IMG/VR virus record: IMGVR_UViG_2877958089_000004
Reading direction: 5' to 3' (one strand)
Length of the DNA: 46,766 nucleotides
DNA from: a virus
Lineage: Duplodnaviria; Heunggongvirae; Uroviricota; Caudoviricetes
Each line of letters opens with the position of its first letter. Position 1 is the stretch's first letter. The position numbers and the translations under genes were made by a program. The notes under the pieces were generated by a model. The model did not search any database and was not told the origin of the DNA. It worked only from the letters and a program-made list of their open reading frames with translations. Shown piece by piece: positions 33,678 through 39,307 of the stretch.

Positions 33678-34621
33678 GCAATACCCCTGTCTGCAAACTT
33701 CCCTTCCCGTACTCCAGTTAACGAATCTTCCCTCAGCAGGTAATCAAAATCAGCTGTCCAGCCCGTGTCGTTGTCTCCGAAGTAAAACGGCTTGGCCTGA
33801 TGCACAAACGCCCTGACATACGCTCTGAAACCGTCCACGTTTGGCGTTTTCAGTTGCGGGATGATTTTCTTCAGGCGGCGTTTGCGTTTCTCGTTGACCG
33901 CAACAGCGTGTGGCAGTCTGTCACCGACTTCGGTGTTGTAGGCGTTCAGGAAGGATTCGTAGTCGATTCGTTCTGCCTTGCGACGTTCAGGTTTAACCTG
34001 CCCATCGCCTCCCCCATTGGGGGGTAGGGGGGTATTATTTATATTCTTGTTAATACCTTCTTGTTCATGATGTGCGGTTGTTTGTGCGGCTTCATGTGCG
34101 CTTTCATGTGCGGCATGTGCGCTGAAAGCCGCGCCATTACTGGCTTCGCCATGTGCGGCATCATGTGCGGTTGTTTGTGCGGCTTCATGTGCGGGTAAAT
34201 TGTCCATTTTTTGAGCATATTCATGGTAATTTGTGATGGTTATCACACGACCTTTTTGCTTCTCTCCATCAATGGAGATCATCCCCTCTTTCACAAAAAC
34301 CTGAAGCATCCGCTCAACCTGATCACGGCTTGCTGGCTTGCCATGTCTGTCGCATAACTGAAGACCTAAATCAGCTGCTGTCACAACCAGTTGACCGGGT
34401 TGCAGATGCCATTCATGACCTTTGAAATTCGCTTTGTATGGCTTTCTGGCGGCATTCAGGAGAAGGTTTTCCCACAGGGTGCGAAGATAAACATCTTTCG
34501 CCCATGACTGTTTCAGAATGCTCCGGTACAACGGAATGTAACCAGTTTTCTGGTTCTCCATCCTGTTGCTCCTGCGCTCGTGTGCGGCGCTGAAATCGTA
34601 GATTTTTGCTGTATTGCTCAT
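33674..34621 (-). CDS. Replication initiation protein (lambda O-like N-terminus)
   Basis: 315 aa; N-terminus [10 protein letters not shown] resembles lambda O MTNTAKILNF; the gene contains an iteron array (ori). Confidence 0.8.
34066..34194. repeat. Putative replication origin iterons inside the O-like gene
   Basis: 30-nt exact direct repeat TGTGCGGTTGTTTGTGCGGCTTCATGTGCG at 34071-34100 and 34165-34194, plus several shorter ATGTGCGG copies between them. Confidence 0.7.
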
Positions 34622-34623
34622 AA

Positions 34624-34896
34624 CTACCTGCCTTGACGAAAGACCTTAAGAACATCGTTAAACTGACTTACGGATATGTCTTCTTTGAGCAGCTTTTCCA
34701 GAAATGCGTTTGGAATGAACGTATATCCCTCCTCTTTTGGTAGAGACGGGAGCAACGCCCTAGCCTCAGCCTTCAGAAGCTCAGTTCTGGCAACTTTCAC
34801 AAAAGAGATTTGAGTTCTTTCATCAATGGAACGAAGGAAGCGCAAACGCTTGGCTTCTTTGTGTGTATCAGGTGGATTAAAGCCTTTGTTTCGCAT
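34624..34896 (-). CDS. Hypothetical protein between cII and the replication gene
   Basis: 90-aa ORF from MRNKGFNPPDTHKEAKRL... with GAGG RBS; the longer 181-aa frame overlaps cII and is rejected. Confidence 0.45.
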   Translation of the reverse strand: MRNKGFNPPDTHKEAKRLRFLRSIDERTQISFVKVARTELLKAEARALLPSLPKEEGYTFIPNAFLEKLLKEDISVSQFNDVLKVFRQGR

Positions 34897-34918
34897 ATAA
34901 TTACCTCGTTGGATGTTA

Positions 34919-35212
34919 TTAAAATTCCATCTGGATTTGTTCAGAACGCTCGGTTGCCGCCGGGCGTTTTTTATTGGTGAGAATCGAAGCAACTTGTCGT
35001 GCCAATCGAGCCATGTCGTCGTCGACGACACCCCATTCAAGAACAGCAAGCAGCATTGAGAACTTTGGAATCCAGTCCCTCTTCCACCTGCTGATCTGCG
35101 ACTTATCAACTCCCACAGCTTCCGCTGTCTTCTCAGTTCCAAGCATTGCGATTTTGTTAAGCAACGCACTCTCGATTCTTAGAGCCTCGTTGCGTTTGTT
35201 TGCACGAACCAT
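34919..35212 (-). CDS. cII: Transcriptional activator CII
   Basis: 97 aa, MVRANKRNEALRIESALLNKIAMLGTEKTAEAVGVDKSQISRWKRDWIPKF... essentially matches lambda CII; the upstream in-frame extension to 35299 is rejected. Confidence 0.95.
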   Translation of the reverse strand: MVRANKRNEALRIESALLNKIAMLGTEKTAEAVGVDKSQISRWKRDWIPKFSMLLAVLEWGVVDDDMARLARQVASILTNKKRPAATERSEQIQMEF

Positions 35213-35270
35213 ATGTAAGTATTTCCTTAACAAATAAGAAGTTATGCGCATCAACTTATGCGCGTTGTAT

Positions 35271-35314
35271 TCCCGCATTTCGGCGGGAATGAGGACCATG
35301 ACTGTTAAAGAGCG
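35271..35314 (-). promoter_or_regulatory. nutR-like site (boxA CGCTCTTTA plus boxB hairpin)
   Basis: On the minus-strand transcript: CGCTCTTTA, a 17-nt spacer, then hairpin UCCCGC-CGAAAU-GCGGGA; located between cro and cII. Confidence 0.65.
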
Positions 35315-35320
35315 GTGTTA

Positions 35321-35521
35321 CTATTTGTTTTTCTTGTTGCTTGGGAAAGGACGAACTTCCTCTCCAATCACACTGCCATCAGGCTTTACCGTAACCATAA
35401 TGTTACGGCCTGCCAGAATGGCCTTGCTGATAGCGCACTGGATTACACCAAAGTCACTGGCTGCTTTAGCCTGTCCATGGATTTTGGCGTAATCGGCAAG
35501 TGTCATTCGAATCATATGCAC
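35321..35521 (-). CDS. cro: Cro repressor
   Basis: 66 aa; ITLKDYA...QTKTAKDLGV.QSAINKAI.AGR...DGSV..EEV.PFPSNKK pattern of lambda Cro. Confidence 0.9.
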
Positions 35522-35546
35522 TCTCCGTTATTAACCATGAACAAAG

Positions 35547-35610
35547 AATACTACAGGTATTCAAAGCAATCAATACTCAGGGTATTTTTAGTTTAAGTAC
35601 CTTAGCTATT
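35547..35610. promoter_or_regulatory. OR operator cluster with divergent PR/PRM promoters
   Basis: Two 15-bp sites of form AATAC-N5-GTATT (AATACTACAGGTATT at 35547-35561; AATACTCAGGGTATT at 35572-35586), 25-bp spacing, plus a weaker third (35596-35610), between divergent cro and cI. Confidence 0.65.
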
Positions 35611-35621
35611 AGAATTAAGCT

Positions 35622-36338
35622 ATGGAAAATAAAAAATCACTGACGACAGAACAGCTCGAAGACGCTAAGCGGCTTAAGGCTTTGTATGAGTCAAAAAAGA
35701 AAGAATTGGGAATAACCCAATACTCAATCGCTGATGAACTGGGTATCACCCAAGGAGCGGTAGGGCATTATCTTAATGGCAGAAACGCGCTAAACGTTGA
35801 GGTCGCATCTGGTTTTGCACGTTTGTTGCAAGTCTCAATTGCTGATTTTAGCCAGTCAATTGCTGCCAAGGTTGCAGAACAGGCAGAAAGCCTTAAGAGC
35901 GATGCCAACGTAAGGTATGCAGGGGAATACAGAGCAGGAAAGAGGTATCCGGTGTTAAGCAGTATCCAGGCTGGCTCGTGGTGTGAAGCATGCGAACCAT
36001 ACACCATTAAAGACATAGATGTTTGGCTTGAGTCTGACGCGCATATTCAAGGCAATGCGTTCTGGCTTAAAGTGGAAGGTGATTCAATGACGGCACCGGT
36101 TGGGTTAAGCATTCCAGAGGGAACATTTGTTCTTTTCGATACCGGAAGGGAGGCGATCAACGGCAGCCTGGTCATAGCAAAACTTTCTGACTCTAACGAA
36201 GCAACATTCAAGAAGCTGATAATCGACGGCGGAAATAAATACCTCAAGGGACTTAACCCTGCATGGCCTCTCGTGCCAATCAATGGAAACTGCAAGATTA
36301 TAGGCGTTGCAATTGAGACAAAACTAAGGCTGGTTTGA
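35622..36338 (+). CDS. cI: CI-type prophage repressor (HTH + S24 LexA-like autopeptidase)
   Basis: 238 aa; N-terminal HTH (…ITQYSIADELGITQGAVGHYLNGR…), C-terminal S24 domain with Ser (…VEGDSMTAP…) and Lys (…ATFKKL…). Confidence 0.9.
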   Translation: MENKKSLTTEQLEDAKRLKALYESKKKELGITQYSIADELGITQGAVGHYLNGRNALNVEVASGFARLLQVSIADFSQSIAAKVAEQAESLKSDANVRYAGEYRAGKRYPVLSSIQAGSWCEACEPYTIKDIDVWLESDAHIQGNAFWLKVEGDSMTAPVGLSIPEGTFVLFDTGREAINGSLVIAKLSDSNEATFKKLIIDGGNKYLKGLNPAWPLVPINGNCKIIGVAIETKLRLV

Positions 36339-36357
36339 TCACGCAAGGGGGACGCTT

Positions 36358-36726
36358 ATGGTTGGAACCGCTATAGCAAGCTTTTTTGGGATGTTGGCAA
36401 TCTCAACAATTTACGGCTTAGCGCATGCTTTTATTGCGAAATCTCTATCAGAAAAAATAAGCCAGGCTTGGGCGCATAGATCAGCTCGTTTCATGATTCT
36501 AGTGGTCATAGCAATACAAGGGATATCTGCATTTATCCTCTATGGATCAAGCTTATACCTGTTGTATCAAGGCGCGACATTTACGCCTTACACCAGTGAT
36601 TACGGAACTCTATACGATGGTAGTGAAGACATCTCTATGGCTTGGATCGTCTTTGGTTTATCTATGGCCGTGTCTGTTGTAGCAGACATCATTAAGGTAA
36701 TTCTCGTCTTAACCTTCGCTGACTAA
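36358..36726 (+). CDS. Small polytopic membrane protein immediately downstream of cI
   Basis: 122 aa, 3-4 predicted TM helices; starts 19 bp after the cI stop on the same strand, upstream of the OL/PL operators. Confidence 0.5.
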   Translation: MVGTAIASFFGMLAISTIYGLAHAFIAKSLSEKISQAWAHRSARFMILVVIAIQGISAFILYGSSLYLLYQGATFTPYTSDYGTLYDGSEDISMAWIVFGLSMAVSVVADIIKVILVLTFAD

Positions 36727-36857
36727 ACCATAATCCCGGCAGCAATAGCTATCGGGATCCACTTCACATATCCCGCATAAAAATCACTGAACAAGCAGAC
36801 AGCGAAAAAATAAATATCCTTTGTATTCATTTGTTTATCATTATTTCATCAAAAATA

Positions 36858-36897
36858 AATACCTTGGGTATTTACACAATAAAATACCTACAGTATT
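36858..36897. promoter_or_regulatory. OL operator pair with PL promoter region
   Basis: AATACCTTGGGTATT (36858-36872) and AATACCTACAGTATT (36883-36897): same 15-bp motif and 25-bp spacing as OR. Confidence 0.6.
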
Positions 36898-36944
36898 CTT
36901 TAGCCATCAGCATGACGCTGGTAGCCAAACGGAACAGGTTGGCA

Positions 36945-36986
36945 GGCTCTTTAACAGTGATGGGATTGTCCCGCCGAAATGCGGGA
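36945..36986 (+). promoter_or_regulatory. nutL-like site (boxA GGCTCTTTA plus boxB hairpin)
   Basis: boxA-like GGCTCTTTA at 36945-36953 followed 15 nt later by TCCCGCCGAAATGCGGGA, identical to the boxB of nutR on its own transcript. Confidence 0.6.
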
Positions 36987-37386
36987 ACCAAAGAGTAGTT
37001 GGCTTTGGGATTGGATGAATGAGCAGGCTGATGCTCGACCAATGTATAAACAGCGCTCATGGCAAGCAGTAACCAATCTGCGCCTCAAGACAGCGTCACT
37101 GGTAGTGCGGGCGCTCTAACCAGTAAGCCGGAGTTCAGCACCGGCCATCCAATCGCCAAAGTCAATTCCATAGGCGTTATGCAGCCGCCACCATATTCAA
37201 GAAAGCTGCACAAGAGGTAGGAGGATTTATGTGAATACTTACATTCAGTTGAGAGATTAATTAAATAGAACTGATCGAGCAGAGTCCATGAAGGCTCATA
37301 AATGCTCTTCCATCCCCGTCTAATTGGCGGGGAAGGAAACCACTTTGTAATAAAAAAATTCCAAAGTTGTTTCATCGGAGGTCAAC

Positions 37387-37692
37387 ATGACAGTAGTCAT
37401 TACATATCTGGCTGACGATAACGCCAGAAATCGCCGCAGAGCACGCAGACAGGCTCAACGTGAACAGGCAATGCAAGAACAGCGACTGGCGCGAAAAATT
37501 GCGCTAAAGCTCTCTGGTTGCGTCAGAGCAGATAAAGCAGCATCACTCGGAAGCCTTCGCTGCAAGAAGGAAGAAGAAGTCGAGAGCAAACAGAACCGTA
37601 TTTACTACCGCAAGCCACGCAGTGAAATGGGTGTGACTTGCTCGGGCCGCCAGAAGCAACGCGGAAAATCAATTCCAGCTTATTACGATTGA
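37387..37692 (+). CDS. N: N-like transcription antitermination protein
   Basis: 101 aa; Arg-rich N-terminus (NARNRRRARRQAQREQ) and C-terminal …GVTCSGRQKQRGKSIP resembling lambda N …GITCSGRQKIKGKSIP. Confidence 0.75.
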   Translation: MTVVITYLADDNARNRRRARRQAQREQAMQEQRLARKIALKLSGCVRADKAASLGSLRCKKEEEVESKQNRIYYRKPRSEMGVTCSGRQKQRGKSIPAYYD

Positions 37693-37700
37693 GGTGAGAT

Positions 37701-38150
37701 ATGGAAGAACAAGCAAACAAGATTCTCGTAGAACTACTGCAAAAAGCCAGCAATGGAATAGACGCGGCTGTTTCATTCAGCCAAGCGCAGATTCCTGATG
37801 TTGTTCATCAGTTGCTGCTATGGAATATGGTTGACAGTCTGATTAAAACATTAATAGCCATTCTAACAATCCCACTGGTTTTCTGGTTTATGAAGAAGCA
37901 GTGCCAAAGAGTTGAGACAGGTAAAATCGGTGATGAAGGATACTCATGGGAGAGGGGAAATCCCAAATACAGGCCGACAATGGTTTGGGATAGCAAAGGA
38001 GATATTAACCTTCTTATCATGCCATTGGTTGGAGTTTTGACTCTGTGGGGGATTTTTATTATTGGTGTAGTAACCAATATGACTTGGTTAAAAATTTGGC
38101 TGGCCCCAAAACTTTACCTTATCGAATATGTAGCATCATTGGTTAAGTAA
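37701..38150 (+). CDS. Membrane protein downstream of N
   Basis: 149 aa with two strongly hydrophobic segments (LIKTLIAILTIPLVFWFM; LLIMPLVGVLTLWGIFIIGVV); GAGGTGAG RBS; first gene after N. Confidence 0.5.
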   Translation: MEEQANKILVELLQKASNGIDAAVSFSQAQIPDVVHQLLLWNMVDSLIKTLIAILTIPLVFWFMKKQCQRVETGKIGDEGYSWERGNPKYRPTMVWDSKGDINLLIMPLVGVLTLWGIFIIGVVTNMTWLKIWLAPKLYLIEYVASLVK

Positions 38151-38338
38151 TTTCAGGCCGCATAACCGTCCTTTATTTTTGGCATAAACAACAGAATAAA
38201 CATAGCACTGTGTATTCATTCCAACGAGTGAATACACGGAGCAATGTCGCTCGTAACTAAACAGGAGCCGACTTGTTCTGATTATTGGAAATCTTCTTTG
38301 CCCTCCAGTGTGAGGGCAATTTTTTTGATGGAGGATAT

Positions 38339-39307
38339 ATGAGTGAAGTAACAGATTTAGTTGTTATTGAAAAAGCAAATGCAATGACTGTATTTCAGTC
38401 TGCCGACCAGATTGAAGAAATCCTTCAAAAGGTTGAACGTGAAGTTATGTCCTTTGTGCCTGATATCACAACGGCAAAGGGCAGAAAGGAGATCGCTTCT
38501 CTGGCGTATAAAGTTGCGCAGACGAAAACATATCTCGATGGTCTTGGCAAAGACCTTGTTGCTGAACTGAAGGAAATTCCAAAGCTAATTGATGCTAACC
38601 GCAAGACAGTGCGTGATCGCCTTGATGAGCTGAAAGCCAAGGCGCGCCAGCCTCTTACTGATTATGAGGAAGAACAGGCGCGGATTAAAGCCGAAGAAGA
38701 AGCTAAGGCAGCAGCTGAAGCTCTCGCAAAGCAAATTGAGTCTGACCATGAAATAGCTATTTTGATGGATCGCGAATTTGACCGCCAAAGAGAAGAGGCA
38801 AGACTCAAAGCGGAGCAGGAAAAGCGAGAGCATGAAGAACGATTAAAAAGAGAAGCTGAAGAGAAAGCCAGAGCAGAAGCCGAAGCAAAGGCAAAAGCCG
38901 AAATTGAAGCAGCAGCAAGGCGAGAAGCAGAAGCTAAGGCCGCAGCGGAACGTGCAGAGCGTGAACGCATTGAAGCCGAGCAACGAGCACAGCGCGAAGC
39001 AAAAGAGGCAGCAGAACGAGCTGAAAGAGAGAAGCAGGCAGCAATTGAAGCAGAACGCAGAAAAGCACAGGAGGAGGCTGAACGAATCCGTCGCGAGGCT
39101 GAAGCAAAAGAGCAAGCCAGAATAGCAGAAGAAAAAAGAATCAAGGACGAAGAAGAGCGTAGAGCAAAGGATAAAGCTCACCGGAAAGAAGTAAATAACA
39201 AAATACTTGCTGACCTTATCAAGGTTGGCGCATCAGAAGATGTTGCTAAAAATATCATAACAGCCATCGTAAAAGGCGAAGTATTCGCAACAAAAATAAC
39301 CTACTAA
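38339..39307 (+). CDS. Hypothetical protein with long charged coiled-coil region
   Basis: 322 aa from MSEVTDLVVIEK... (GGAGG RBS); central ~150 aa of E/A/K/R-rich repeats; the upstream in-frame ATG at 38285 is rejected. Confidence 0.55.
   Translation: MSEVTDLVVIEKANAMTVFQSADQIEEILQKVEREVMSFVPDITTAKGRKEIASLAYKVAQTKTYLDGLGKDLVAELKEIPKLIDANRKTVRDRLDELKAKARQPLTDYEEEQARIKAEEEAKAAAEALAKQIESDHEIAILMDREFDRQREEARLKAEQEKREHEERLKREAEEKARAEAEAKAKAEIEAAARREAEAKAAAERAERERIEAEQRAQREAKEAAERAEREKQAAIEAERRKAQEEAERIRREAEAKEQARIAEEKRIKDEEERRAKDKAHRKEVNNKILADLIKVGASEDVAKNIITAIVKGEVFATKITY

What the first reader, a model, noticed from the sequence alone, without database searches (positions are those of the whole stretch)
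36358..36726. Small polytopic membrane protein co-transcribed with cI (rexB-like position)
A 122-aa protein with 3-4 TM helices starts 19 bp after the cI stop on the same strand and ends before OL/PL. It should therefore be expressed from PRM in the lysogen, the position lambda uses for rexA/rexB and where lambdoid phages commonly carry exclusion or abortive-infection morons. I recognise no family for it.
Basis: partly seen in the sequence, partly recalled or inferred. Interest (0 to 1): 0.6.

Follow-up and report, generated by a model that had tools for sequence, protein, structure and literature searches.

The report
HK620 hkaS membrane gene beside cI
This is a real, conserved but already catalogued prophage gene (hkaS of phage HK620). 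It encodes a small three-helix inner-membrane protein that follows the repressor gene and is probably made in lysogens; nobody has tested its function, and its position suggests defence against other phages.

Summary
ORF 36358..36726(+) encodes 122 aa and starts 19 nt after the cI stop, behind a strong Shine-Dalgarno. It ends 87 nt before the first OL-side operator-like site. It is not family-less: it is hkaS of coliphage HK620 (96.7% identity, annotated 'unknown' in GenBank record AF335538) and PHROG 6534.

It is a genuine gene. dN/dS is 0.14-0.20 between lineages, and all 81 copies compared (the window plus 80 IMG/VR loci) are intact. AlphaFold (pLDDT 92) and hydropathy give three TM helices, not four, with predicted N-out/C-in topology.

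The family is tiny: 12 clusters at 90% identity and 2 representatives among 1.84 billion proteins, seen only in E. coli, Salmonella and Hafnia records. Every copy with upstream sequence lies 17-22 nt downstream of an HK620-type cI and inside the OR..OL bracket.

hkaS shows no homology to RexB, SieA or Hex, and fold searches were uninformative.

Co-transcription with cI is well supported by the anatomy but is not shown. An anti-phage role is only an analogy with rexAB, hex and bstA, which sit in the same slot. My best guess is a SieA-like block of genome entry at the inner membrane (about 0.35).

Interest is modest: a known unknown in a known hotspot, cheap to test.

The parts
35547..35611 (.). 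OR operator cluster (OR1 and OR2 cores at 35547-35561 and 35572-35586; OR3 mapped at 35595-35611), between cro and cI
   Evidence: Exact matches to AATAC-N5-GTATT. OR1-3 are annotated in HK620, mapped with offset +33799.
35610..35615 (+). Putative PRM -10 hexamer TAGAAT, 6 nt before the cI ATG. This implies a leaderless cI mRNA as in lambda (inferred).
   Evidence: Sequence read. The geometry (OR3 ends 10 nt before the cI ATG) is the same as in lambda. Not tested experimentally.
35622..36338 (+). cI repressor, 238 aa, HK620 immunity type
   Evidence: Pfam HTH_3 and Peptidase_S24. 99.6% identical to HK620 cI.
36345..36352 (+). Shine-Dalgarno AAGGGGGA of hkaS, inside the 19-nt cI-hkaS spacer
   Evidence: Purine-rich SD-like motifs stand at the same place in all diverged lineages.
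36358..36726 (+). hkaS homologue: a 122-aa inner-membrane protein with three TM helices (the finding)
   Evidence: ORF. PHROG 6534, E 5.9e-79. HK620 hkaS, 96.7% identity. AlphaFold pLDDT 92. Purifying selection.
36452..36457 (+). A6 run inside hkaS where some copies carry a -1 frameshift (HF4s; metagenomic P0014)
36733..36758 (+). Stable RNA hairpin 7 nt after the hkaS stop, without a U tract. It may be a 3'-end or stabilising element of the cI-hkaS transcript.
   Evidence: RNA fold. Each diverged lineage has a hairpin shortly after the stop; those of the Salmonella and L008 lineages have different sequences, the Hafnia one resembles the window's.
36808..36838 (+). Stretch annotated tIMM in HK620. 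Its core 36813-36827 also matches the operator consensus with one mismatch.
   Evidence: HK620 annotation mapped with offset +33801. Conserved in all lineages.
36857..36906 (+). OL2 (36857-36873), OL1 (36882-36898) and pL (36871-36906)
36945..36986 (+). nutL (mapped from HK620)
   Evidence: alignment.
37387..37692 (+). Antiterminator N, first gene of the pL operon
   Evidence: PHROG 271, E 5e-36.

Best explanation
The ORF is the hkaS gene of the HK620-type immunity cassette. It is the second and last gene of the repressor operon.

Transcripts that start at PRM in the lysogen, or at PRE during establishment, would run through cI and cross the 19-nt spacer. hkaS would then be translated from its own strong SD, and the transcript would end at the hairpin or tIMM region before OL.

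The product inserts into the inner membrane as a three-helix bundle. The predicted topology is N-terminus in the periplasm, a basic loop 28-44 in the cytoplasm, an acidic aromatic beta-hairpin loop 71-91 in the periplasm, and the C-terminus in the cytoplasm.

It is an accessory (moron-like) function that rides inside the OR..OL bracket and therefore always travels with this cI. The most likely role is protection of the lysogen against superinfecting heteroimmune phages. It would act within the inner membrane to block genome entry, as P22 SieA, T4 Imm and HK97 gp15 do. It would probably not act as a RexB-type suicide channel.

**Status of each step.**
- Shown: the gene is real, its position, the predicted membrane architecture, and linkage to cI.
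- Inferred from anatomy: co-transcription with cI and the topology.
- Inferred by analogy only: the anti-phage role and the entry-block mechanism.
For: **Gene and operon anatomy.** Searches show the ORF, the SD, and no + strand promoter or terminator between the cI start and the hkaS stop. Operators bracket cI-hkaS. The HK620 record annotates tIMM, OL1-3 and pL downstream of hkaS.

**Linkage to cI.**
- In 79 of 79 IMG/VR loci with upstream sequence, a 238-aa cI ends 17-19 nt upstream.
- The arrangement is the same in Salmonella, Hafnia and other lineages with only 52-82% HkaS identity.
- All 16 phage records with cI at 99% identity or more carry hkaS.

**Selection.** dN/dS is 0.14-0.20. pN/pS is 0.31, against 0.04 for cI, and no copy among 81 is disrupted.

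**Architecture.**. Basic residues K28, K33, R41 and R44 lie in loop 1; acidic residues D81, D87, E90 and D91 lie in loop 2.

**Accessory nature.**
- Relatives of this cI at 62-71% identity have nothing, or unrelated soluble ORFs, in this slot.
- HF4s, a viable lysogenising phage, has a frameshifted copy (preprint 10.1101/2021.06.09.447823).
- hkaS occurs in podoviruses, HK97-like and lambda-like siphoviruses and Stx phages.

**Analogy.**
- The cI-N interval is a recognised hotspot that holds rexAB and bstA, both expressed with the repressor (PMC8585504), and hex in phage 434 (PMC3564112).
- P22 SieA is a prophage-expressed inner-membrane protein with three predicted TM domains, and its most conserved motif lies on the cytoplasmic side (PMC10883804).
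- HkaS is likewise most conserved in its two cytoplasm-proximal segments: 82% for residues 110-122 and 71% for residues 28-44, against 46-57% elsewhere.
Against: - I found no transcript, protein or phenotype data for hkaS. Literature searches by gene name, accession numbers and carrier phages gave nothing.
- There is no hit in PADLOC and no homology to any known exclusion protein: RexB, SieA and Hex.
- The hairpin after the stop has no U tract, and the annotated tIMM is AT-rich and looks like an operator. Where the transcript ends is therefore unknown.
- The gene accompanies phages with unrelated virions, so it gives no clue to a target.
- The best-conserved surface faces the cytoplasm, which would equally suit a host-directed or switch-related role.
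- Perfect linkage to cI is explained by its position inside the immunity cassette and says nothing about function.
Confidence: 0.38

Rival explanations
1. RexB-like abortive-infection effector. HkaS oligomerises into a latent ion channel that an infecting phage opens, collapsing the membrane potential and killing the cell before progeny are made.
For: - It occupies the same slot and operon position as rexB (PMC8585504).
- It has invariant polar or charged residues inside TM helices: Q54, S106, D110 and K113.
Against: - No rexA-like sensor gene is present; cI abuts hkaS directly.
- There is no similarity to RexB (BLASTP E 5.6; hhalign probability 0.7%).
- It has 3 TM helices, not 4.
- Only about 35 extramembrane residues are available to sense anything.
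Confidence: 0.15
2. Switch or maintenance factor rather than defence. HkaS would tune lysogen stability or induction, as 434 Hex and lambda RexAB are reported to do. For example, it could act on a membrane protease such as FtsH/HflKC or sequester a regulator at the membrane.
For: - It has stayed linked to one cI lineage over a span in which synonymous sites are saturated.
- Its most conserved parts face the cytoplasm.
- There are precedents: Hex, cotranscribed with 434 cI, lowers spontaneous induction (PMC3564112), and RexAB assist the lysogeny-to-lytic transition (bioRxiv 10.1101/2021.04.19.439022, title and abstract).
Against: - The linkage is explained trivially by location inside the OR..OL cassette.
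- Related cI genes work without it.
- HF4s, with a frameshifted copy, still lysogenises (preprint 10.1101/2021.06.09.447823).
- HkaS evolves 4-5 times faster than cI at nonsynonymous sites, which is unusual for a core switch component.
Confidence: 0.15
3. Host-directed lysogenic conversion unrelated to phages. One example would be an intramembrane immunity-type protein against pore-forming colicins or other membrane toxins; another would be a modifier of a host transporter or stress response.
For: - The size and three-TM architecture resemble the immunity proteins of pore-forming colicins (from my own memory; not tested).
- It is kept intact in 146 of 5426 complete E. coli genomes from diverse sources.
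- Other cargo in this slot is not always anti-phage: a PagP-like gene is annotated next to cI in phage Huey.
Against: - There are no Pfam or NCBIfam hits to colicin-immunity or any other family.
- The best-studied genes in this slot act on phages: rexAB, bstA and hex (PMC8585504, PMC3564112).
Confidence: 0.12
4. Not a functional gene: a chance or decaying ORF between cI and OL.
For: - A few database copies are frameshifted or carry internal deletions (P0004, P0005, P0007-P0009, P0014).
- HF4s carries a frameshift.
- No function is known.
Against: - dN/dS is 0.14-0.20 and pN/pS is 0.31, with p = 1.6e-4 against neutrality.
- All 81 copies are intact.
- The length is exactly 122 aa in lineages only 52% identical.
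- The SD is conserved.
- The fold prediction is confident, pLDDT 92.
Confidence: 0.02

Closest known systems
HK620 hkaS (AAK28867.1) / PHROG 6534
   Same: It is the same gene: 96.7% amino-acid identity, the same length, and the same place between cI and tIMM/OL. Identical or near-identical copies occur in vB_EcoP-611R6, HK140, HK630, mEpX2, two Stx2c phages and others.
   Different: Nothing essential differs. The window copy has a 2-nt longer spacer and 4 amino-acid differences from HK620. The family has no assigned function.
Lambda RexB (with RexA)
   Same: Both are small polytopic inner-membrane proteins encoded downstream of cI, upstream of OL/pL, on the repressor transcript (PMC8585504).
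   Different: - There is no detectable homology.
- HkaS has 122 aa and 3 TM helices; RexB has 143-144 aa and 4 TM helices (the RexB helix count is from memory).
- There is no RexA partner.
- No Abi phenotype is known for HkaS.
P22 SieA
   Same: Both are prophage-encoded proteins with three predicted TM helices and no enzymatic domain. SieA is shown to be an inner-membrane protein expressed from the prophage; for HkaS both points are inferred. In both, the best-conserved motif lies on the cytoplasmic side (PMC10883804). This is the model for the proposed entry-block mechanism.
   Different: - There is no homology (hhalign probability 0.3%).
- SieA is 162-164 aa, has its own promoter and sits in the immI region next to the ejection-protein genes, not in the cI operon.
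- SieA's targets (gp16 and gp20) are known; HkaS has no known target.
Phage 434 Hex and Salmonella BTP1 BstA
   Same: Both are accessory genes placed directly downstream of the prophage repressor and expressed with it in lysogens. Both interfere with other phages (PMC3564112, PMC8585504).
   Different: I saw no indication that either is an integral membrane protein. No similarity to Hex was found. Similarity to BstA was not tested directly, but the PADLOC scan found nothing.
Class I holins (lambda S105 type)
   Same: They have a similar size and three TM helices with N-out/C-in topology (the holin topology is from memory; the HkaS topology is predicted).
   Different: - HkaS is not in a lysis cassette.
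- It has no dual-start motif and no basic C-terminal tail; it ends in the invariant ILVLTFAD.
- There are no holin family hits.
- Constitutive expression in a lysogen would be incompatible with a functional holin.

Membership tests
HkaS / PHROG 6534 | Full-length sequence match to the family profile | tested here: met
   phrog_6534 E 5.9e-79, residues 1-122 of 122. 96.7% identity to HK620 HkaS.
HkaS / PHROG 6534 | Location immediately downstream of an HK620-type cI and upstream of OL | tested here: met
   (79 of 79 loci; spacing 17-22 nt).
Lambda RexB | Sequence or profile similarity to RexB | tested here: not met
   BLASTP E 5.6. hhalign probability 0.7%. The profile search of 1.84 billion proteins found only 2 representatives, both HkaS-like in sequence (one full-length, one a truncated copy).
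Lambda RexB | Paired with a rexA sensor gene in the same operon | tested here: not met
   cI stop to hkaS start is 19 nt. There is no other conserved ORF between cI and OL.
Lambda RexB | Four TM helices | tested here: not met
   Three TM helices by hydropathy and AlphaFold.
Lambda RexB | Position in the PRM operon between cI and OL | tested here: met
Lambda RexB | Phage-triggered membrane depolarisation or abortive infection | not testable with these tools
   Needs infection assays.
P22 SieA | Sequence or profile similarity, including the FxRYPxEAxxFNK motif | tested here: not met
   hhalign probability 0.3%. The motif is absent from HkaS.
P22 SieA | Small inner-membrane protein with three TM domains expressed from the prophage | tested here: inconclusive
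   The architecture is predicted. Localisation and expression were not measured.
P22 SieA | Blocks DNA injection of specific phages | not testable with these tools
   Needs plating-efficiency, potassium-efflux and DNA-entry assays.
Class I holin | Encoded in the lysis cassette next to endolysin and spanin genes, with late expression | tested here: not met
   It lies in the immunity region between cI and OL.
Class I holin | Charged (basic) cytoplasmic C-terminal tail and a match to a holin family | tested here: not met
   The C-terminus is ...KVILVLTFAD. No holin family appears in Pfam or PHROGs.
434 Hex | Sequence similarity to Hex | tested here: not met
   BLASTP best E 4.4 over 8 residues.
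Known defence systems (PADLOC-DB 2.0) | Match to any defence-protein model | tested here: not met
   0 families at E up to 1.

The most novel reading that the evidence does not exclude
HkaS founds a new, very compact class of prophage defence: a single 122-aa three-helix membrane protein with no sensor partner, expressed from the repressor operon. It would either plug the inner-membrane step of genome entry for heteroimmune phages or act as a self-contained, membrane-sensing abortive-infection channel. The invariant D110/K113/Q54 intramembrane residues and the invariant ILVLTFAD C-terminus would form the active surface.
Probability: 0.3. Interest if true: 0.55.

Novelty: new member of a known kind. 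Interest (0 to 1): 0.35.

Why it matters
The interval between cI and N of lambdoid prophages is transcribed constitutively in lysogens. It has already yielded rexAB, hex and bstA.

HkaS is carried by about 2.7% of complete E. coli genomes (146 of 5426). It also occurs in model phages that are easy to handle, including HK620, mEpX2, HK140 and HK630, and in Stx2c-converting phages. Yet it has had no assigned function since 2001.

If it excludes phages, it would add a minimal membrane-only defence that current defence finders miss (no PADLOC hit). It would also matter for phage-therapy host range in E. coli.

If it does not, it still marks a lysogen-expressed membrane protein that could affect host physiology in STEC and commensals. 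Either way the experiment is cheap: one deletion, one plasmid and a phage panel.

Tried and rejected
1. **Remote homology.** Pfam, NCBIfam and PADLOC scans gave nothing usable; the only Pfam hit, Cation_ATPase_C at E 0.0012, is below the cutoff. The word-indexed search of 5.8 billion proteins found 12 clusters, all HkaS. The exhaustive profile search of 1.84 billion representatives found 2. A scan of one genome per species found none.
3. **Direct tests of homology.** RexB, SieA and Hex were all negative.
4. **A hidden partner gene.** The 35-aa hydrophobic antisense ORF 36723..36830(-), annotated in HF4s, is absent from the Salmonella, Hafnia and L008 lineages. I reject it as chance.
5. **Known RNAs.** There is no Rfam match in 34500-38500 at E up to 1.
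6. **A canonical intrinsic terminator after hkaS.** None was found. Hairpins are present, but without U tracts.
7. **Literature.** Searches for hkaS, accession numbers, PHROG id and carrier phages gave no functional data. The HK620 genome paper (PMID 11518522) and the HK97 gp15 paper are not in the library.
8. **svsR.** The svsR sRNA of prophage NC-SV lies at the 3' end of its cI gene (PMC12803456). Whether that cI is of the HK620 type was not checked, and I did not pursue it.

Full report
**1. The observation**

The window carries a P22-like (Lederbergvirus-type) E. coli prophage. Its immunity region reads, on the + strand unless noted:
- cro, 35321..35521 on the - strand;
- the OR operators;
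- cI, 35622..36338;
- the ORF in question, 36358..36726;
- the OL operators and pL;
- nutL;
- N, 37387..37692.

The ORF is 122 codons. It starts 19 nt after the cI stop codon (TGA, 36336-36338) and is preceded by AAGGGGGA at 36345-36352, 5 nt before the ATG.

The consensus scan finds no promoter-like or terminator-like site on the + strand between the start of cI and the end of the ORF. The only + strand promoter-like site nearby is pL, at 36871-36899.

The operator core AATAC-N5-GTATT, allowing one mismatch, occurs six times in 46.8 kb. Five of the six lie at OR (35547, 35572) and OL (36813, 36858, 36883). Operators therefore bracket the cI-ORF pair.

Hydropathy shows three hydrophobic stretches, at about 1-27, 44-70 and 92-121. 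An AlphaFold model built from seven family members has mean pLDDT 92.3 and pTM 0.79. It gives helices 2-29, 31-38 (short), 41-73 and 89-121, with a small beta-hairpin at 78-86. The protein therefore has three TM helices, not four.

The loop after TM1 carries K28, K33, R41 and R44. The loop after TM2 carries D81, D87, E90 and D91. By the positive-inside rule the N-terminus and loop 2 are periplasmic, and loop 1 and the C-terminus are cytoplasmic. This topology is inferred, not measured.

**2. Identity**

- It matches PHROG 6534 ('unknown function') end to end, E 5.9e-79.
- It is hkaS of coliphage HK620 (AAK28867.1, product 'unknown'), 96.7% identical in protein.
- The HK620 record annotates hkaS between cI and a terminator called tIMM, followed by OL3, OL2, pL/OL1 and nutL.
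- These features map onto the window at 36808-36838, 36835-36851, 36857-36873, 36871-36906/36882-36898 and 36945-36986. The two sequences are almost identical through this stretch.

Pfam, NCBIfam and PADLOC give nothing significant.

**3. It is a real gene**

Between lineages, dN/dS is 0.14 (window versus the Hafnia type, 82% identity) and 0.20 (Hafnia type versus the Salmonella type). For deeper pairs, synonymous sites are saturated in both cI and hkaS.

The length is exactly 122 aa in every lineage, down to 52% identity. A purine-rich SD-like motif precedes the start in each.

I compared 81 E. coli-type copies: the window plus 80 IMG/VR loci.
- None has a frameshift or premature stop.
- There are 21 nonsynonymous and 21 synonymous variants, giving pN/pS 0.31. 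This is significantly below neutrality (binomial p = 1.6e-4).
- The neighbouring cI has 5 nonsynonymous and 37 synonymous variants (pN/pS 0.04). hkaS is thus clearly less constrained than cI (Fisher p = 3e-4).

Between lineages, dN of hkaS is 4-5 times that of cI: 0.10 versus 0.02, 0.34 versus 0.08, and 0.42 versus 0.08.

A few database copies are damaged.
- Phage HF4s and the metagenomic protein P0014 carry a -1 frameshift in the A6 run at 36452-36457.
- Other copies have N-terminal frameshifts or short internal deletions.

HF4s is a viable phage that forms lysogens (preprint 10.1101/2021.06.09.447823). If that frameshift is not a sequencing error, hkaS is dispensable for both lytic growth and lysogeny.

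**4. Distribution and context**

The family is remarkably small.
- The word-indexed search of 5.8 billion proteins found 12 clusters.
- A profile HMM read against 1.84 billion representatives found only two hits.
- A scan of one genome for each of 185,579 species found none.

The named members come from E. coli, Hafnia paralvei and Salmonella. hkaS is present in 146 of 5426 complete E. coli genomes, always chromosomal, full length and at least 95% identical.

Context is invariant.
- In 79 of 79 IMG/VR loci with upstream sequence, a 238-aa cI ends 17-19 nt before hkaS.
- In the Salmonella (60% HkaS identity), Hafnia (82%) and L008 (52%) lineages, hkaS again follows a cI of 238-240 aa and is followed by operators of the same consensus. 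The spacer is 17-20 nt in these three and 22 nt in the short contig L014. N follows in every locus that extends that far.
- In the phage collection, the 16 records with cI at 99% identity or more are exactly the 16 that have hkaS.

Everything outside the bracket varies. The carriers include P22-like podoviruses (HK620, 611R6, HF4s), an HK97-like siphovirus (HK140), HK630, mEpX2 and Stx2c-converting phages. Their N, replication and recombination modules differ.

The more distant relatives of this cI have other contents in the slot.
- Serratia phage OS31 (71% cI identity) has nothing there.
- Erwinia phage 49 (65%) has an unrelated soluble 200-aa protein.
- Cronobacter phage ENT39118 and Escherichia phage Fostie (62-65%) have a small soluble protein further downstream.

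So the place directly behind cI is a variable cargo slot. hkaS is the cargo of one immunity type.

Because the slot lies between OR and OL, any exchange of the immunity specificity must carry it along. That is enough to explain the perfect linkage, which by itself is not evidence of a functional tie to cI.

**5. What the sequence says about how it works**

*Expression.* OR3 ends 10 nt before the cI ATG, as in lambda. A TAGAAT hexamer sits at 35610-35615, 6 nt before the ATG. This suggests a PRM that makes a leaderless cI message as in lambda; it is an inference.

With no promoter or terminator signal in between, and with its own strong SD, hkaS should be translated from every transcript that traverses cI. 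That means PRM transcripts in lysogens and PRE transcripts during establishment (PRE is annotated in HK620).

A stable hairpin follows the stop codon at 36733-36758. Each of the four diverged lineages has a hairpin at the corresponding place. Those of the Salmonella and L008 lineages have different sequences; the Hafnia one resembles the window's. None has a U tract.

The stretch that the HK620 record calls tIMM is AT-rich and matches the operator consensus with one mismatch. The 3' end of the transcript is therefore uncertain.

*Conservation.*
- The C-terminal segment 110-122 (D-I-x-K-x-ILVLTFAD) shows 82% mean pairwise identity, with 9 of 13 positions invariant.
- The cytoplasmic loop 28-44 (K-I-S-Q-A-W-x-H-R-x-A-R-F) shows 71%.
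- TM1, TM2, the periplasmic loop and the first half of TM3 show 46-57%.
- Invariant polar residues sit within the helices: Q54, S106, D110 and K113.

The protein has no enzymatic or nucleic-acid-binding domain, and only about 35 residues lie outside the membrane.

*Structure comparison.* Fold searches are uninformative.
- BFVD and PDB Foldseek gave no hit at E up to 1e-3.

**6. Comparison with known systems**

By position hkaS corresponds to lambda rexAB, but it is not a RexB.
- There is no similarity (BLASTP E 5.6; hhalign probability 0.7%).
- There is no rexA.
- It has three helices rather than four.

It is also unrelated to 434 Hex and to P22 SieA (hhalign probability 0.3%).

The literature supports the general expectation attached to the slot. 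Owen et al. note that the cI-N region is a hotspot of mosaic diversity that holds rexAB in lambda and bstA in BTP1. bstA lies downstream of the repressor, presumably shares its promoter, and is highly expressed in lysogens (PMC8585504). Hex of phage 434 is cotranscribed with cI from PRM, excludes P22 and also stabilises the lysogen (PMC3564112).

The closest architectural analogue with a known mechanism is P22 SieA (PMC10883804).
- It is prophage-expressed and 162-164 aa long.
- It has three predicted TM domains and lies exclusively in the inner membrane.
- Its best-conserved motif is on the cytoplasmic side.
- It blocks DNA injection by interfering with the ejection-protein conduit.

The same paper lists HK97 gp15, Tuc2009 Sie and TP-J34 Ltp as membrane proteins that block injection.

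The window has no type-A SieA homologue (tblastn E 0.85).

**7. Best explanation and rivals**

I consider it well supported (about 0.9) that this is a functional, lysogen-expressed, accessory inner-membrane protein forming the distal gene of the cI operon.

What it does is not known. I rank the options as follows:
1. Superinfection exclusion by an intramembrane block of genome entry, SieA/Imm/gp15-like. This is the most parsimonious role for a protein that is almost entirely membrane-embedded and has no sensor partner.
2. A RexB-like latent channel causing abortive infection.
3. A modulator of lysogen stability or induction, Hex-like or Rex-like.
4. A host-directed conversion function, such as immunity to membrane-active toxins.
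5. No function, which the selection data exclude.

The overall confidence of 0.38 attaches to the full statement including option 1.

**8. Novelty and interest**

The ORF itself is already known: it has been annotated in the HK620 record (AF335538) and is in PHROGs. The idea that genes in this slot are lysogen-expressed exclusion genes is textbook.

What is open is the function of this particular, very narrow family, which no defence catalogue recognises.

A specialist would not be surprised by the finding. It is nevertheless a clean, cheap candidate in tractable phages, and it is present in about 2.7% of complete E. coli genomes, including STEC prophages. I score interest at 0.35.

Noticed in passing
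window 36808-36838 (core 36813-36827): The stretch annotated as terminator tIMM in HK620 matches the operator core AATAC-N5-GTATT with one mismatch (AATATCCTTTGTATT). It is conserved in all four diverged lineages. It may be an extra OL-side operator, relevant to OL-OR looping or PRM control, rather than or as well as a terminator.
   Followed up: partly
window 37020-37104 and 37167-37373: Relative to HK620, the pL leader between nutL and N carries about 292 extra bp. It is mosaic: the first piece is shared with vB_EcoP-611R6 and the second with HK140. The small ORFs there (37059..37220 +, 37085..37375 -) match no family.
   Followed up: partly
window 37701..38150 (+): A 149-aa hydrophobic, probably membrane, protein lies immediately after N (PHROG 3054, unknown function; annotated 'TM helix-containing protein' in HF4s). 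It is a second uncharacterised membrane protein in the early-left region.
   Followed up: no
window 36452-36457: An A6 homopolymer inside hkaS is the site of a -1 frameshift in phage HF4s and in the metagenomic protein P0014. This could be a slippage-prone inactivation site or a recurrent sequencing error.
   Followed up: partly
window 36723..36830 (-): A 35-aa hydrophobic ORF lies antisense to the hkaS 3' flank and is annotated as a CDS in HF4s. It is absent from the Salmonella, Hafnia and L008 lineages, so it is probably a chance ORF.
   Followed up: yes
window 36872..37060 (-): A 62-aa ORF antisense to pL/OL1/nutL gives a weak partial PHROG 6589 hit (E 1.8e-7 over 20 residues). This probably reflects other phages annotating the conserved nutL region as a CDS.
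   Followed up: no
window 38285..39307 (+): A 340-aa protein has a long low-complexity repeat rich in Glu, Ala, Lys and Arg (EAKAKAE/AERAERE). Its function was not examined.
   Followed up: no
whole window: No homologue of P22 type-A SieA is present (tblastn best E 0.85), although the virion genes are P22-like.
   Followed up: partly
L016 2230-2832 (Erwinia phage vB_EhrS_49); phage Huey: Other cI relatives carry different cargo directly behind cI. Erwinia phage 49 has a soluble 200-aa protein 12 nt after its cI. Phage Huey has a PagP-like gene annotated next to its repressor. Both illustrate the cargo-slot nature of this position.
   Followed up: partly
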